From Planctomycetota bacterium (GTDB taxonomy: Bacteria; Planctomycetota; MHYJ01; JACQXL01): a stretch of 64,000 nucleotides of DNA. Positions 3,617 through 51,478 of the stretch are shown one piece after another. Position numbers and translations under genes: made by a program. Where the stretch lies: NCBI GenBank assembly GCA_043801445.1, contig JAZDMB010000030.1, positions 78,178-142,177 on the forward strand, in the 5' to 3' direction. How positions within the stretch are numbered: the first letter of the stretch is position 1; each line of letters opens with the position of its first letter. The notes below the pieces were generated by a model. That model was not told where the DNA came from. It searched no databases and saw only the letters and a program-made list of their open reading frames with translations.

Positions 3617-3865
3617 TAATGATGAAACCACGGATACACACTGATAAACACTGATTTTCATTATTCGTATTAATCAAATCCATAAATAAACACAGATTAT
3701 CTGCGTTCATCTGCCTGCCTACTTGGTGTTAATCTGTGGTTGCAATTTTAGATATCATCATTTTTGGAATATAATCATTCTTACAAATTAATCTTCAATT
3801 TATTTGACCTGACTCATATCGAATGTTATGCTTTATAAAAAGTCATAGGATTCCTATAAAATAAT

Positions 3866-8727: not shown

Positions 8728-8916
8728 TAGGCTGTCTAAAAAGCAACCACAGATACACACCAAGTAGGCAGGCAGATGGACACAGATAAATCAGTAGGTA
8801 GTAGGTAGAAAATAGTAGGTAGGAAAAACTCCCTACATTCTATCTCTTATAATATCAGTGTTTATCCGTGTTAATCTGTGGTTACGAAGTTTTCTTGAAA
8901 TAAAGGAGGATTTTAT

Positions 8917-10329
8917 ATGAGCGGAATTTTTGGAGTAGTTACCGGGAAAAAGGATTGTTCTGAGCTTTTGCTTTACGGGACTGATTATCATTCGCATTTA
9001 GGCACCGAATACGGCGGGCTGGCAATACTGGGCAAAGAGTTTTTTAGGAAAATCCACCATATCAGCCAGTCGCAATTCAAATCGAAGTTTTATGAGGACC
9101 ATACGGCAATGTCCGGCAACAAGGGCATCGGCGTCATCAGCGCGGATGAGGAACAACCGATGTATCTTAATTCACGCTTGGGTCCTTTCGCCATATGCAC
9201 CAACGGCAGAATTGAAAATATAGACCGCCTCGTTTCGGAAATGCTCAAAAGGGGCGTCTCTTTCACCGAGGTTAAAGAAGGCAAGGTGAATTCTACCGAG
9301 GTCATTGCCAAGCTGATTAATGAGGGCAAGAATATCACGGACGGGATAGAGCGTGTTTTCAGCAAGATAAAAGGCTCATGTTCGCTCTTGCTTCTGAACA
9401 AGGACGGAGTCTATGCAGCGCGCGACCGATACGGGTATTCGCCGCTGATTATCGGCCAGAAAGCCGGCGCCTGGGCCGTTACTTCGGAAACCGCTTCGTT
9501 TCCCAATACCGGATTCAGGATAAAAAAATATCTACAGCCGGGCGAGATTGTCTTAATCCATGAAAACGGATTAAGTGAAAAACGGAAAGGCGGAAAGATT
9601 AACCAGATTTGCTCTTTTTTATGGATATACACCGGGTTCCCGGCCTCCAGTTATGAGGGCATCAACGCCGAGATAGTCAGGGAGCAGAGCGGACGCCTGC
9701 TTGCCCGTAATGATGATATCGCAGCCGAACTGGTTTCCGGAGTGCCTGATTCAGGAACGGCGCATGCCATCGGCTATGCTATGGAATCAGGAATACCTTT
9801 CAGGAGGCCGCTGGTAAAATACACTTCCGGCTACGGACGGAGCTATACACCGCCGGCTCAGGCAACCCGTGATTTGGTTGCCAAGATGAAGTTGATACCC
9901 ATCAAGGATATCATCAATAATAACCGCATTATTGTTTGCGAGGACTCCATTGTCAGAGGAACCCAGCTGAAGAATTTTACTGTTCAGAAGTTATGGGAAA
10001 ACGGCGCTAAGGAAATTCATATCCGTCCGGCATGTCCGCCCCTGATGTTTCCCTGCCGTTTTAATATTTCCACGCGCACTTTGGACGAACTTGCCGCCCG
10101 CCGCGCTATAAAAGATATCGAAGGCAAACCATTAAAAGACATAAGCGCATATATTGACCATAAAACCAAAAAGTATCAGAAAATGGTTGAATGGATTGCC
10201 CGTGATTTAGACGTCACCAGCCTGAGATATCAGACGATAGACGATATGGTTGAAGCTATCGGATTACCGCATGATAAACTCTGCCTTTACTGCTGGACCG
10301 GCCGGGCTCATGACAACAATAAGCAGTAG
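8917..10329 (+). CDS. amidophosphoribosyltransferase (PurF)-like protein with Ser replacing the N-terminal nucleophile Cys
   Basis: N-terminus 'MSGIFGV' (class II Ntn-GATase normally starts 'MCGIxG'). C-terminal type I PRTase motif 'IVCEDSIVRGTQLK'. C-terminal Cys pairs (CPPLMFPC, CLYC) resemble the PurF Fe-S ligands. Strong RBS upstream. Confidence 0.65.
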   Translation: MSGIFGVVTGKKDCSELLLYGTDYHSHLGTEYGGLAILGKEFFRKIHHISQSQFKSKFYEDHTAMSGNKGIGVISADEEQPMYLNSRLGPFAICTNGRIENIDRLVSEMLKRGVSFTEVKEGKVNSTEVIAKLINEGKNITDGIERVFSKIKGSCSLLLLNKDGVYAARDRYGYSPLIIGQKAGAWAVTSETASFPNTGFRIKKYLQPGEIVLIHENGLSEKRKGGKINQICSFLWIYTGFPASSYEGINAEIVREQSGRLLARNDDIAAELVSGVPDSGTAHAIGYAMESGIPFRRPLVKYTSGYGRSYTPPAQATRDLVAKMKLIPIKDIINNNRIIVCEDSIVRGTQLKNFTVQKLWENGAKEIHIRPACPPLMFPCRFNISTRTLDELAARRAIKDIEGKPLKDISAYIDHKTKKYQKMVEWIARDLDVTSLRYQTIDDMVEAIGLPHDKLCLYCWTGRAHDNNKQ

Positions 10330-10436
10330 CAGCCTTTGCTGAGCTTCTCAGCCCGTTAGAAGCCTCGCTTTCAACATGTGATATAATTTTATTCGTCTCT
10401 TTACCCCGTTGAGTTGCTTCTAACGGGGCAGGCGGA
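10326..10436 (+). repeat. hairpin-forming dispersed element, copy 1 (…gcagtagcag…cccgttagaagc / gcttctaacggg…gcaggc)
   Basis: 12-bp perfect inverted repeat cccgttagaagc/gcttctaacggg around a ~50-nt loop. Immediately 3' of the purF-like gene. Confidence 0.6.
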
Positions 10437-11559: not shown

Positions 11560-11721
11560 CATGCCAGAGGCCCTCCATAGGCGGGTAAACAGGTAAACGG
11601 GCAGGCAGTAGCAGAACAGGGTTGCATCTTCACCCCGTTAGAGTCGCAACAGCCGAATGGATTAAACCAAAACAAAACCCATATCACACATTACGAACGA
11701 CTCTAACGGGGCAGGCAGATT
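11560..11721 (+). repeat. hairpin-forming dispersed element, copy 2
   Basis: 'gggcaggcagtagcag...ccccgttagagtcg / cgactctaacgggg...caggcag'. Stem carries compensatory changes relative to copies 1 and 3 (gagtcg/cgactc vs gaagc/gcttc). Confidence 0.6.
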
Positions 11722-19531: not shown

Positions 19532-19715
19532 GAACGTGAAACCACAGATAGACACGGATAAACACTGATTTTTATATGGGTTAATCAAATCCCGATTAAA
19601 CACTGATTATCTGTGTTCATCGGTGTTCATCTGTGGTTGTCATACCTGTGGCAGATCCGCCTTTGGCGGACAGTTTTCTTGACCCCGTTTGGAATATTTT
19701 ATATATTCATATAAT

Positions 19716-44593: not shown

Positions 44594-44705
44594 TTTCAGA
44601 AAACTTCGTAACTTCTGCCACGAAAGCACAAAGACACCAAGAAGAAATTAACGAGTTGTTTTCTTTGTGCCTTAGTGTCTTTGTGGCTAAATTTTATGAC
44701 TTTCT

Positions 44706-46169: not shown

Positions 46170-46345
46170 AGAAACCACAAAGAGCGTGAGTATTTTATAA
46201 GGAGTCCATGAATTCAGGAAAATTAATCTTAGTTTCCTGGGTTCCTTATAGAAATTATCTGTGAAATCTGCTTGCCTCGTTAGAAAATGCAATTTCACCA
46301 CAACGAAATTCATTGATTTTATGGAATAAGAGGGCATAATCTGAA

Positions 46346-47530: not shown

Positions 47531-47984
47531 GCAACGACTTGCGGGAGTCCCGACCGAACGTCGGGGGATGCCTGCCTGCGCTAAAGCTTCGGCGGGTAAT
47601 CCATACCTAATTATCCATCCGTAAAATCTGTTTTATCAGTTTAATCCACTTACAGATTCTTCGTATTTCTTACACACTAATATTAAATCCGTGTTCATCT
47701 GAGTTCATCTGTGTCCCATATTTCTTTGCGGTGAATCTTCTCTTAACCTACCTACTACCTACTTCATACTGCATACTACATACTATTAATTCGTGTCAAT
47801 CTTGTGAAATCTGTGGTTACGTTTCGGTTTTTATTTACCGTATTCCTCTTTCTTCTATCCGTAAGGATACCATAAGTAACGGGTTTGTTACTTATCCGGC
47901 AGGTATGAGAAATGAAGGTTTCATCTAACTTCTTGATTTGAAATGGATTAGAAAAAATAAAAAAATATGCAGAAATCCGAAAAT

Positions 47985-48250
47985 AGCACTCTCTGTTACT
48001 TATGGGGACCTATCCACTACGGGATTCTACCCTACCTACCTATGGTTATATGGGGTATATCCTATGGTTAGTAGGGATACTACCTATGGTTATATGGGGT
48101 ACTACCTATGGTTAGTAGGGATACCTCCTATGGTTATATGGGATACTACCTATGGTTATATGGTATACCTCTACTGGAGGGTACGGTATCCCCCCTGGGT
48201 AGGTAGGGTAGTATAGGGGGGAGATAGGGGGATGGGGGTATACCTAATTT
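47985..48250 (+). repeat. degenerate tandem array (~22-bp unit 'tacctatggttatatgggGatac', ~8 copies) ending in a G-run block
   Basis: Unit copies are visible directly. Ends '...ggggggagatagggggatgggggtatacc'. Read-through ORF 47938-48216 is periodic and judged non-coding. Confidence 0.75.
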
Positions 48251-49595: not shown

Positions 49596-50100
49596 GCAGG
49601 GGGGGGTATACCCCCTCTACTGCCTCAGTAGAGGGCATCTACTGGATTATTAACCCATATCTCCTGAGGTAGTAGGTGGCGTCTGCTGAGGTATCTGACC
49701 ACCTCTCCTAAGATAGTAGACTGTATCTGCTGAGGTACCTGACCATCTCTTCTGAGATAGTAGACGGCATCTGCTGGATTGTCAACACCCCGCCACTGAG
49801 TTAGGGGGTGGTATCTGCCGGATTGGCAGCCCATGTCTCCTGAGATAGGGGATAGTATCTGCTGGATTATTAACACATCTCTCCTGAGGTAGTAGACGGT
49901 ATCCGGTGAGTTACCCGACCATATCCCCTGAGGTAGTAGATGGTATCTGCTGAGGTATCCAACCATATCCCCTGAGGTAGTAGATGGTATCTGCTGAGAT
50001 ATCCAACCATATCCCCTGAGATAGTAGATGGTATCTGCTGGATTGTCAACACCCCTCCACTGAGTTAGGGGGTAGTATCTGCTGAGTTACCTCCACCCTG
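49596..50100 (+). repeat. degenerate tandem array (~45-bp unit 'ccatatcccctgaggtagtagatggtatctgctgaggtatccaa', ~9 copies), inverted relative to the 47985-48250 array
   Basis: Unit contains 'ggtatccaaccatatcccctgaggtag', which resembles the reverse complement of the upstream unit ('ggtatccccatataaccataggtag'). Begins with the palindrome 'ggggggtataccccc'. Confidence 0.7.
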
Positions 50101-50127
50101 ATTAGAAATTTTGGTTGTTAGATTATG

Positions 50128-50269
50128 GTTCGGCAGGCAGTAGCAAGACACTGATGCAGTAGCAAGTTTTCTGGGCTTCTCAGCCAGTTAGAAGCGTCCT
50201 TTGAATGAGATGTAAGGCTTTCTGATAGGTTATTATTTTCTCTTGGTTTCGCTTCTAACGGGGCAGGCT
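50128..50269 (+). repeat. hairpin-forming dispersed element, copy 3
   Basis: 'ggcaggcagtagcaag...cagccagttagaagcg / cgcttctaacggggcaggc'. Lies between the tandem array and the gatC 3' end. Confidence 0.6.
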
Positions 50270-50296
50270 CCCGACCAGAATGACGAGGGATAATCA

Positions 50297-50623
50297 TTAT
50301 TCTATAATTCTCGGCACCTCGAAGAAATTACCTTTCCGTTTTGGCGCATTTTGGAGCGCTTTGTCAGGTGTCAATGAATTCTGATGTGCCTTATCATCCC
50401 GCCAAATACCCGCCTGACCGGCCGTCAGTTCGGGCAGGTTCAAGTGTTTTTCGTCCAAGGAATGTATTAATGGCTCGATATTAGTTACGTCTATTTCCTT
50501 AAGGCTGTCCACATAAGCGAGTATCTCTGACATGCCTTGTTTGAGTGATTCTTTGTCTTGAGGAGATACGGAAAGCCGCGCCAGTGAACAAAGATGCTCG
50601 ATAAGTTTATCGTCTATTTTCAT
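50297..50623 (-). CDS. gatC: aspartyl/glutamyl-tRNA amidotransferase subunit C
   Basis: 'MKIDDKLIEHLCSLARLSVSPQDKESL...ILAYVDSLKEIDVTNIEP...NFFEVPRIIE' matches GatC over its full length. Start taken at the internal Met. Confidence 0.75.
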   Translation of the reverse strand: MKIDDKLIEHLCSLARLSVSPQDKESLKQGMSEILAYVDSLKEIDVTNIEPLIHSLDEKHLNLPELTAGQAGIWRDDKAHQNSLTPDKALQNAPKRKGNFFEVPRIIE

Positions 50624-51303: not shown

Positions 51304-51478
51304 AGTATTTATTAATAATTTATCGTATGGAATTCCAGAGATAACAACGGAATTAAACTAATTAAAGAGAACACGAATAAGACGAATACGGCGAATCTCG
51401 CGAATAATTCGTGCTATTCGTTCCATTCGTGTGATTCGTGTTGAAATCTGATAAATCCGTTAAATCCTGTTGTTTAAT

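What the first reader, a model, noticed from the sequence alone, without database searches (positions are those of the whole stretch)
10326..10436. Dispersed hairpin repeat with compensatory stem changes at gene 3' ends (three copies: 10.3, 11.6 and 50.1 kb)
Copies at 10326-10436, 11560-11721 and 50128-50269 share 'ggcaggcagtagca' at the 5' end and 'cttctaacggggcaggc' at the 3' end, with a 10-14-bp stem (cccgttagaagc/gcttctaacggg). In copy 2 the stem is ccccgttagagtcg/cgactctaacgggg, so both arms changed while pairing was preserved. All three sit immediately downstream of convergent or terminal gene ends. They are not followed by T-tracts, so they are not classic intrinsic terminators. REP/BIME-like elements, mRNA-stabilising 3' hairpins or an ncRNA family are all candidates.
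Basis: seen in the sequence. Interest (0 to 1): 0.55.

Follow-up and report, generated by a model that had tools for sequence, protein, structure and literature searches.

The report
Cross-phylum mobile hairpin repeat element
The three repeats are real copies of a small hairpin-shaped piece of mobile DNA, similar in kind to the REP elements of E. coli, but its stem sequence is almost identical in uncultured bacteria of seven phyla, and in some genomes it sits, nested, inside tRNA-Val genes.

Summary
Three same-strand copies lie at 10323-10432, 11605-11715 and 50156-50267. Each is an inverted pair of CCCCGTTAGA / TCTAACGGGG plus 3-4 covarying base pairs, a 51-53-nt unconserved loop and a CAGG tail. 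No U-tract follows.

It is not a local duplication. One pattern scan found 37 loci in MAGs of seven phyla, and a second found 7 metagenome loci of the window's own subfamily. Rfam, viral contigs and plasmids gave nothing.

It behaves as inserted DNA:
- An orthologous empty site in a Nitrospirota relative shows a clean 37-nt insertion (hairpin plus 4-nt tail) with no target duplication.
- Relatives lack the copy after purF, and that copy supplies the purF stop codon.
- Subfamilies with near-identical loops sit at unrelated loci, and one loop is inverted.
- Elements nest inside each other and inside tRNA-Val anticodon loops, where they carry an intact replacement tRNA-Val.
- Orientation relative to genes is random.

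Best reading: a non-autonomous REP/REPIN-like hairpin element moved in trans, probably by an HUH/Y1-type single-strand transposase. No such enzyme was found. An mRNA or ncRNA role is neither needed nor excluded. The family appears undescribed. Novelty: new variant of a known kind. Interest is moderate.

The parts
10323..10432 (+). Copy 1. 5' extension GCAGTAGCA... 10323-10351; left arm CCCGTTAGAAGC 10352-10363; loop 10364-10415; right arm GCTTCTAACGGG(G) 10416-10428; tail CAGG 10429-10432. TAG at 10327-10329 is the stop codon of the purF-like ORF 8917-10329.
   Evidence: Homology with relatives' purF loci ends at 10322.
11605..11715 (+). Copy 2. 5' extension GCAGTAGCAGAACAGGGTTGCATCTTCA 11605-11632; left arm CCCCGTTAGAGTCG 11633-11646; loop; right arm CGACTCTAACGGGG 11698-11711; tail CAGG 11712-11715.
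11590..11606 (+). Possible relic of the right end of an older upstream unit (gtaaaCGGGCAGGC) abutting copy 2.
   Evidence: Intact tandem arrangement ...TCTAACGGGGCAAGAG|GCAGTAGCAG... in L044/L048. Inference.
50156..50267 (+). Copy 3. 5' extension GCAGTAGCAAG... 50156-50183; left arm CC-A-GTTAGAAGCG 50184-50196 (bulged A at 50186); loop; right arm CGCTTCTAACGGGG 50250-50263; tail CAGG 50264-50267.
   Evidence: loop 83-87% identical to L044/L047/L048
50132..50155 (+). Truncated second 5' extension (GGCAGGC + AGTAGCAAGACACTGAT), of the type seen intact in L013 and L045. It lies just upstream of copy 3.
46262..46290 (-). Degenerate solo arm (GCATTTTCTAACGAGGCAAGCAG) inside another small hairpin. 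It is homologous to an intact solo arm in metagenome contig L043 1585-1643.

Best explanation
The three repeats are copies of a non-autonomous mobile DNA element of the REP/REPIN (or 'TIR-dimer') kind.

The unit is a hairpin. It has a 10-bp sequence-constrained stem base (CCCCGTTAGA/TCTAACGGGG), 3-4 further base pairs that only need to pair, a loop of free sequence and length (3 nt to more than 100 nt, sometimes holding cargo such as a tRNA gene), and a 4-nt tail CAGG on one side. The window's subfamily also carries about 30 nt of 5' extension (GCAGTAGCA...).

Shown here: the unit is inserted or absent as a block at orthologous sites, with no target-site duplication. It is dispersed at unrelated loci in either orientation to genes. 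It nests in the loops of other hairpins, both other copies and tRNA-Val anticodon loops.

Inferred: it moves as single-stranded DNA folded into the hairpin. It is cut and rejoined by an HUH/Y1 tyrosine transposase encoded elsewhere in the genome (RAYT/TIRYT/IS200-like), which reads the stem base and the unpaired flanks (5' flank usually TTYA or a purine; 3' tail CAGG).

Any effect on neighbouring genes would be a by-product: a stable 3' RNA hairpin, or the new stop codon for purF.
For: Family and constraint.
- 37 genome loci in Planctomycetota, Patescibacteria, Omnitrophota, Nitrospirota, Thermodesulfobacteriota, Bdellovibrionales and Cloacimonadota.
- 7 metagenome loci of the window's own subfamily.
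- Extra unselected copies within those loci.
- Arms are invariant, while loops share no motif and range from 25 to 75% GC.
- Stem covariation score is 0.25 against 0.13 in shuffles, 0/500 shuffles as high; slid controls give 0.06-0.09.
- The unselected inner positions 1-3 are Watson-Crick paired in 21-26 of the 37 raw hits.

Insertion.
- L054 against its syntenic relatives L055-L057 shows a clean 37-nt insertion (hairpin plus CAAG) between ...GTTCTCC and GCGGTAA... with no duplication. A second unit is present only in L054.
- Relatives with purF genes 81-86% identical in DNA lack copy 1, and homology stops at 10322.

Dispersal.
- The copy 1 loop is 80% identical to L013, and the copy 3 loop is 83-87% identical to L044/L047/L048. 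All have unrelated flanks.
- The L042 loop is the reverse complement (85-91%) of those loops, while its flanks keep their orientation.

Nesting.
- L016 holds an element inside an element.
- L021 and L033 hold an element with an intact tRNA-Val inside a tRNA-Val anticodon loop, three layers deep in L033. L032 is the recombined relic.

Other.
- Orientation to genes is random.
- Solo, paired and clustered units occur, as described for the TIR families next to TIRYT Y1 transposases, whose TIRs share GGGGWSAS (PMC3733652, PMC6006769).
- The complement of the left flank reads GGGGTGAR.
Against: - No transposase was identified. There is no Y1/HUH-like ORF in the window or the loci fetched up to (motif scan; Pfam), and no protein family recurs near the elements.
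- A RAYT profile search returned mostly unnamed metagenomic proteins; every named hit but one was proteobacterial, and none was from the phyla that carry the element.
- The REP hallmark tags GTAG/CGTC are not adjacent to the stem.
- The right-arm motif GGGGCAGG does not fit GGGGWSAS.
- REP families are normally lineage-specific, whereas these arms are the same in seven phyla. That is unexpected for a RAYT-type system and is unexplained.
- The clean empty site rests on one locus pair.
- MAG taxonomy may contain binning errors.
- Joining the interrupted tRNA-Val halves at the deduced ends leaves two extra T in the loop.
Confidence: 0.6

Rival explanations
1. It is primarily an RNA element. The transcribed hairpin is bound by a conserved host protein or RNase and acts as an mRNA 3'-end stabiliser, a processing site or a factor-dependent terminator. 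The copies are kept for that function.
For: A stable 12-14-bp stem with compensatory changes. Copies 1 and 3 lie at gene ends. G.T/T.G pairs outnumber A.C/C.A by 22 to 11 at unselected stem positions on the strand bearing the CAGG tail, as expected if one strand folds; single-stranded DNA would give the same bias. Sequence conservation across phyla could reflect a conserved binding protein.
Against: No Rfam family matches. Loops are unconserved and range from 3 to more than 100 nt. Orientation and position relative to genes are random. No U-tract follows. Presence/absence at orthologous sites and nesting inside tRNA genes show insertion dynamics that a host cis-element does not need.
Confidence: 0.15
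2. It is a classical MITE: a deletion derivative of an insertion sequence with 13-19-bp terminal inverted repeats, moved as double-stranded DNA by a DDE transposase.
For: Inverted terminal arms surround a variable interior, which fits cargo capture. Some copies are flanked by short direct repeats: ATGAAT and ATGGAT in L015, GCAGGC in L020, L029, L030 and L034.
Against: The one precisely resolved insertion has no target-site duplication. The direct repeats recur with the same sequence at different copies, so they are not random target duplications. The inner stem positions covary, which a transposase-binding TIR does not require. Units with 3-13-nt loops and solo arms exist. No longer element with these termini and a transposase gene was seen.
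Confidence: 0.1
3. It is a recombination site of the integron attC type (or another folded site for a tyrosine recombinase), and the DNA between sites is a cassette.
For: It has an attC-like size (about 85 nt) and a conserved GTTAGA/TCTAAC core resembling GTTRRRY/RYYYAAC. Conservation is of structure rather than sequence. A bulged-base variant exists. Copies 1 and 2 lie in the same orientation around one ORF that has its own promoter-like site.
Against: The polarity is the reverse of attC: 5'-GTT...AAC-3' on both strands, where attC is 5'-RYYYAAC...GTTRRRY-3'. There is no second (L) box. No integrase is encoded in the window. The elements are scattered singly among housekeeping genes. The insertion unit is the hairpin itself.
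Confidence: 0.04
4. It is a tRNA-derived RNA element, or a new protein-dependent tRNA intron or split-tRNA joint. The long stem holds the two tRNA-Val halves together, and the intergenic copies are retro-copies or relics.
For: Three interrupted tRNA-Val genes in two phyla have matching halves and the same junctions. If the deduced element (CCCC...GGGGCAGG) is removed, TTCA|CAT or TTTA|CAT is restored, which are valid Val anticodon loops apart from two extra T. The left flank GCAT(Y)TT(Y)A of non-tRNA Planctomycetota copies resembles the tRNA anticodon stem and loop.
Against: The outer tRNAs look damaged: the L021 anticodon stem has 2 of 5 mismatches, the L033-A T-stem has a C.A pair, and the L032 3' half is decayed. 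An intact tRNA-Val always lies inside. ARAGORN finds no intron-containing tRNA. Units with 3-nt loops cannot be ribozymes. Bacteria are not known to have a tRNA splicing endonuclease (my own knowledge). Most copies have no tRNA context.
Confidence: 0.05

Closest known systems
REP elements and REPINs (REP doublets forming hairpins) mobilised by RAYT Y1 transposases (Bertels & Rainey 2011, PMC3116915; Di Nocera 2013, PMC3733652)
   Same: Short, intergenic and multi-copy. The hairpin has unpaired conserved flanks. Two inverted units are separated by about 50-70 nt to form a long hairpin. Singles, doublets and clusters occur. The element is non-autonomous. Insertion leaves no target duplication.
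   Different: There is no GTAG or CGTC tag at the stem foot. The single unit is not itself a palindrome. The arms are conserved across seven phyla, whereas REP families are lineage-specific. Loop length and content are free and can include a tRNA gene. No RAYT was found.
TIR repeat families next to TIRYT genes ('TIRtrons'; Di Nocera 2013; subclass 2.1 of Quentin 2018, PMC6006769)
   Same: Non-palindromic units of about 19 nt occur as singles, inverted dimers or groups. They hold a GGGG-containing motif (GGGGWSAS). The complement of the left flank here reads GGGGTGAA or GGGGTGAG. TIRYT subclass 2.1 was found in 14.9% of the bacterial strains surveyed by Quentin 2018.
   Different: The right arm reads GGGGCAGG, which does not fit the motif. 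No TIRYT gene flanked by these arms was found. The link is a lead from the literature, not a tested result.
IS200/IS605 ends and their ORF-less derivatives (PATEs)
   Same: Hairpin-dependent. No target duplication. Asymmetric ends. Insertion lies 3' of a short conserved flank (here mostly TTCA or TTTA, compare TTAC for IS608). Hairpin loops are plausible single-stranded targets.
   Different: IS200/IS605 elements have a separate small hairpin at each end, not one stem formed by the two ends. No TnpA or TnpB is nearby.
Integron attC sites
   Same: Folded site of similar size with a GTTRRR/YYYAAC-like core. Structure is conserved more than sequence. A bulged-base variant exists.
   Different: Opposite polarity of the core boxes. 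No L box. No integrase. Not arranged in arrays.
Rickettsia palindromic elements, Correia/NEMIS and other bacterial MITEs
   Same: Small palindromic insertions that can land in or next to genes and alter their ends, as copy 1 supplies the purF stop codon.
   Different: Those families are genus-specific, have fixed interiors and (Correia) leave TA duplications.

Membership tests
REP/REPIN-RAYT | Short imperfect palindrome, or an inverted doublet forming a hairpin, intergenic and multi-copy | tested here: met
   Three copies in 64 kb. 53 curated units in the fetched loci. Short-loop units of about 35 nt and doublet-like units of about 85 nt both occur.
REP/REPIN-RAYT | Conserved unpaired GTAG (or CGTC) tetranucleotide at the stem foot | tested here: not met
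   The flanks are (TTY)A or a purine on the 5' side and CAGG on the 3' side. GTAG occurs only 22-23 nt upstream, and only in the window's subfamily.
REP/REPIN-RAYT | A single-copy RAYT gene in the same genome, usually flanked by the repeats | not testable with these tools
No Y1-like ORF was found in the window or the loci fetched up. The RAYT profile search gave no usable hit.
REP/REPIN-RAYT | Family sequence specific to a genus or species lineage | tested here: not met
   The same arms occur in seven phyla.
TIRYT-associated TIR families | TIR carries GGGGWSAS | tested here: inconclusive
   The left-flank complement GGGGTGAG fits and GGGGTGAA nearly fits. The right arm GGGGCAGG does not.
TIRYT-associated TIR families | Units occur as singles, dimers and groups | tested here: met
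   Solo arms (W 46262-46290, L043 1605-1630), dimers (most copies) and clusters (L027/L054, L028, L044).
MITE (DDE transposon derivative) | Target-site duplication flanking the TIRs | tested here: not met
   The filled/empty alignment A3 shows none. The purF junction shows none.
Integron attC | 5'-RYYYAAC (R'') ... GTTRRRY (R')-3' polarity with an inner L''/L' box | tested here: not met
   Both strands read 5'-GTTAGA...TCTAAC-3'. There is no second box.
Integron attC | Adjacent intI and an array of cassettes | tested here: not met
   Pfam annotation shows housekeeping genes only.
Intrinsic terminator | GC-rich hairpin with a short loop, followed by a U-tract | tested here: not met
   The loop is 51-53 nt and no T-run follows. 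The scan finds none at the copies.
Known structured RNA families (Rfam 15), including the group I introns of bacterial tRNAs | Match to a covariance model | tested here: not met
   No hit at gathering score in the window. In the element regions, the only credible hit was the inner tRNA of L033; all other matches lay far below their families' gathering scores.

The most novel reading that the evidence does not exclude
This would be a previously unrecognised, ancient or horizontally spreading family of hairpin transposable elements with one recognition sequence shared by at least seven bacterial phyla, including CPR/Patescibacteria. It would insert into single-stranded hairpin loops. Its natural target would include the tRNA-Val anticodon loop (TTCA|C), where it survives only when it carries a replacement tRNA-Val, giving 'Russian-doll' tRNA genes. 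It would be served by an as yet unidentified, correspondingly conserved enzyme.
Probability: 0.2. Interest if true: 0.8.

Novelty: new variant of a known kind. Interest (0 to 1): 0.55.

Why it matters
- Small hairpin repeats such as REPs are thought to be private to narrow lineages and tied to a vertically inherited transposase. A family whose 10-bp stem base and tail are unchanged from Planctomycetota to CPR bacteria breaks that pattern, especially as its interior drifts to each host's base composition. It implies either a very conserved partner enzyme or frequent transfer between phyla that share habitats.
- The family offers a sequence tag for finding that enzyme by co-occurrence.
- It is an annotation hazard: it creates stop codons and splits tRNA genes that standard tools then miss.
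- The nested tRNA-Val genes are a natural example of an insertion that is tolerated because it brings its own replacement gene.
- For the window itself the practical message is modest. These are selfish or neutral insertions, not regulators that need explaining.

Tried and rejected
- Rfam at gathering and at permissive thresholds: nothing.
- Literature search for the arm sequences: only chance primer matches.
- Searches for tRNA-intron and MITE literature: only group I introns in Patescibacteria, which are unrelated.
- Viral contigs: 0 hits.
- Plasmid collection: only chance matches within the loop.
- Metagenome scan for the tRNA junction TCTAACGGGGCAGGCATTGC: 0 hits.
- Exact look-up of the window's purF product: not on record.
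- Shared neighbouring protein family among the 37 loci: none, apart from LysRS in 4 loci, in two of which (L021, L032) it lies just upstream of tRNA-Val.
- Hunt for the enzyme:
  - The motif scan for HUH...Y..NP ORFs found none.
  - ORFs lying between outward-facing arms looked like ordinary host genes on inspection of their N-termini, e.g. a DnaK-like start in L003; none was run against a family library.
  - A profile built from E. coli RayT and plasmid homologues returned mostly unnamed metagenomic proteins; every named hit but one was proteobacterial. This line was abandoned.
- attC reading: rejected on polarity.
- Invertible-promoter reading: considered because some loops hold -10-like boxes and one loop is inverted. 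Rejected because a segment of about 55 bp is too short for recombinase-mediated inversion, the loops share no motif, and promoter-like sites are not enriched.
- Synteny of the related MAG loci L002, L013 and L016 with the window: none around the copies, so the right-hand boundaries in the window could not be fixed by comparison.
Full report
**1. The observation**

Reading the three stretches confirms a shared architecture on the + strand:
- GCAGTAGCA.
- 22-23 nt further on, a left arm (C)CCCGTTAGA followed by 3-4 variable bases.
- About 52 nt of unrelated sequence.
- The complementary variable bases, then TCTAACGGGG.
- A tail CAGG(C).

The 15-mer TCTAACGGGGCAGGC occurs exactly three times. Shuffled sequence gives a mean of 0.77 matches even when three mismatches are allowed.

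The long-range stem is the dominant predicted feature on both strands. Whole-element folding z-scores are unremarkable because the loops are unstructured.

- GGCAGGCAGTAGCA is absent from copy 1.
- Copy 2 shares only TCTAACGGGGCAGGC at the 3' end.
- Copy 3 has a bulged A.

No T-tract and no terminator-like site follows any copy.

One further degenerate solo arm lies at 46262-46290 on the minus strand.

**2. Context**

The window is ordinary chromosome. It encodes rho, pyrB, pyrC, purF, ispF, cysS, ispH, ruvC, dnaG, rpoD, gpmI, gatC and ruvA, and no transposase or integrase.
- Copy 1 begins inside the last codons of the purF-like gene and supplies its stop codon.
- Copy 2 lies about 250 nt after a hypothetical lipoprotein-like ORF.
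- Copy 3 lies between a 44-bp tandem array and the 3' end of gatC on the other strand.

Among the purF homologues that carry a source name, almost all are from Omnitrophota or Planctomycetota MAGs.

**3. The family**

A single scan of one genome per GTDB species for GTTAGA-N55-72-TCTAACGGGGCAGGC returned 37 loci; by my estimate about four would be expected by chance. By their record titles these come from MAGs of Planctomycetota, Patescibacteria (Kaiser-, Pacei-, Uhr-, Moran-, Doudna-, Saccharibacteria and others), Omnitrophota, Nitrospirota, Thermodesulfobacteriota, Bdellovibrionales and Cloacimonadota. Many loci contain further copies that were not selected by the pattern.

A second scan found seven metagenome contigs carrying the window's own subfamily with the GCAGTAGCA extension.

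Nothing was found in viral contigs, in plasmids of cultured bacteria or in Rfam. I found no description in the searchable literature.

**4. What is conserved**

- Across 43 units, the four C, GTTAGA, TCTAAC, the four G and CAGG are nearly invariant.
- The base 5' of the foot is a purine, most often within TTCA or TTTA.
- Where the search pattern did not force it, the base after CAGG is free.
- Loops share no motif. Their G+C ranges from 25 to 75%, which I take to reflect the composition of each host. In unselected copies their length ranges from 3 to about 170 nt.
- The 3-4 pairs inside the conserved stem covary (A-U, G-C, U-A and others). On a 53-unit alignment the covariation score is 0.25 against 0.13 in shuffles (0/500 as high) and 0.06-0.09 in slid controls.
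- Two of those pairs were used in choosing the units. I therefore checked the 37 raw hits, where inner positions 1-3 are Watson-Crick paired in 26, 24 and 21 cases.
The stem must be about 13-14 bp long, but only its outer 10 bp are read by sequence.

**5. It is inserted DNA**

(a) L054, the full contig of L027 (Nitrospirota), is syntenic with L055-L057, whose marker protein is 84% identical. The intergenic alignment shows a clean 37-nt gap in the relatives. The gap corresponds exactly to one unit (CCCCATTAGAAAC-loop-GTTTCTAACGGGG plus CAAG), with 1 nt of ambiguity and no duplicated flank. A second unit in the opposite orientation is also present only in L054, and a third is shared.

(b) Four loci whose purF genes are 81-86% identical in DNA to the window's lack any element after the gene. 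Similarity stops at 10322, immediately before GCAGTAGCA, and two of the three homologues whose 3' ends were read encode tails 13-18 residues longer.

(c) Units with near-identical loops sit at unrelated loci. Copy 1 matches L013 at 80%. Copy 3 matches L044, L047 and L048 at 83-87%.

(d) The L042 loop is the reverse complement of the copy 3-type loop (85-91%), while its extension and tail keep their orientation. This fits either strand of a near-symmetrical hairpin being mobilised, or template switching within the palindrome.

(e) 5' extensions and loops are combined in different ways in different copies. In L044/L048 two units stand in tandem, so that the tail of one abuts GCAGTAGCA of the next. 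This probably explains the 'GGCAGGC' before copies 2 and 3 as relics of lost upstream units.

(f) Orientation relative to neighbouring genes is close to random.

**6. Nesting and tRNA genes**

In L016 one unit lies inside the loop of another.

In L021 (Bdellovibrionales) and L033 (Doudnabacteria) a unit whose loop holds an intact tRNA-Val(CAC) lies inside the anticodon loop of another tRNA-Val gene. L033 is three layers deep, with matching acceptor stems proving the nesting. L032 is the form expected after recombination between the outer and inner 5' halves.

With the ends deduced from the empty site (CCCC...GGGGCAGG), the junctions read TTCA|element|CAT or TTTA|element|CAT. The element therefore sits between anticodon positions 35 and 36 of Val loops. 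This agrees with the TTYA left flank seen at many non-tRNA copies.

The outer genes show damage, and an intact tRNA-Val always lies inside. I therefore read these as insertions that were tolerated because they carry a replacement gene, not as introns. ARAGORN finds no intron-bearing tRNA.

One point is unexplained. All three outer 5' halves carry two extra T before TTCA/TTTA, and Planctomycetota copies share the longer flank GCAT(Y)TT(Y)A. Either the flank travels with the element, or these copies descend from one interrupted tRNA.

**7. Mechanism**

*Shown:* block insertion without duplication, asymmetric ends, dependence on a stem, nesting in hairpin loops, and trans-dependence (no gene inside).

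*Inferred:* single-strand transposition by an HUH/Y1 enzyme, as for REP/REPIN-RAYT, TIR families-TIRYT and IS200/IS605.

The literature describes TIR families next to TIRYT genes that occur as singles, dimers and groups and share GGGGWSAS (PMC3733652, PMC6006769). Our left-flank complement (GGGGTGAR) resembles this motif, but the right arm (GGGGCAGG) does not.

I could not find the enzyme. This part therefore rests on analogy.

G.T pairs outnumber A.C by 22 to 11 at unselected stem positions on the tail-bearing strand. This is a weak hint that this strand is the folded one.

**8. Rivals**

- An RNA role (3' stabiliser, processing site) cannot be excluded, because the hairpin forms in transcripts of either strand. 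It explains neither the insertion dynamics nor the free loops.
- A DDE-type MITE is disfavoured by the lack of duplication and by the stem covariation.
- attC is excluded by polarity and by the absence of an L box or an integrase.
- A tRNA-intron or split-tRNA reading is disfavoured by the damaged outer genes and by the minimal units with 3-nt loops.

**9. Novelty and score**

In kind, this is a REP/REPIN-like element. Three features are unusual and, as far as I could find, undescribed:
- one recognition sequence shared across seven phyla;
- a loop that accepts arbitrary cargo;
- self-compensating nesting in tRNA-Val genes.

I rate it a new variant of a known kind, with moderate interest (0.55).

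Caveats:
- Taxonomy rests on MAG labels.
- There is only one clean filled/empty pair.
- Copy number per genome was not measured.
- No enzyme was identified.

Noticed in passing
window 49627-50126 and 48033-48171: Two intergenic tandem arrays. One has about 10 copies of a 44-bp unit (22-bp sub-period, 75% matches) directly upstream of copy 3. The other has about 6 copies of a 22-bp unit. ORFs called inside them (49625-49966 minus, 47938-48216 plus) have no Pfam match and are probably not genes.
   Followed up: partly
window 51364-51449 and 44618-44686; L045 5691-5782 and 5865-5936: Two other dispersed intergenic palindromes: an ACGAAT/ATTCGT-rich long hairpin, and CCACAAAGACAC...GTGTCTTTGTGG. 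They are shared at 80-85% identity with a metagenome contig that also carries the main element. This lineage therefore holds several hairpin repeat families.
   Followed up: partly
window 3623-3661, 8854-8880, 19537-19635, 47687-47713: A further short repeat family built from CACAGATAAACAC / GTGTTTATC-like words, in intergenic regions.
   Followed up: no
window 8765-8822: A GTAG/GCAG-rich low-complexity stretch (GTAGGCAGGCAG...GTAGGTAGTAGGTAG) upstream of purF. It contains the same GGCAGGCAG word as the element's tail region.
   Followed up: no
window 10323-10329 (end of ORF 8917-10329): The purF-like gene ends in a TAG supplied by the inserted element. Two of the three close homologues whose 3' ends were read encode C-terminal tails 13-18 residues longer.
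   Followed up: yes
L033 3880-3955: Inside the nested tRNA-Val locus of a Doudnabacteria MAG lies a truncated tRNA 5' fragment followed by a different set of small palindromes (CCCGAC...GTCGGG). The locus looks like a hotspot for several hairpin elements.
   Followed up: no
L005, L021, L032, L035: A lysyl-tRNA synthetase gene lies in the same 8-kb locus as the element in four loci from three phyla. In L021 and L032 this is because tRNA-Val follows lysS. The other two were not examined.
   Followed up: no
window 50280-50308 (+): A good sigma-70-like site (ATGACG-17-TATAAT) just after copy 3 points into the antisense strand of gatC. Similar promoter-like sites follow copies 1 and 2. Counts are not above the shuffled expectation.
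   Followed up: partly
arms of all copies, e.g. window 11635-11645: The left arm (CCGTTAGAGyC) resembles the 3' part of a tRNA D-arm (GGTTAGAGC), and the right arm resembles its complement. This may be chance or a trace of a tRNA origin.
   Followed up: no
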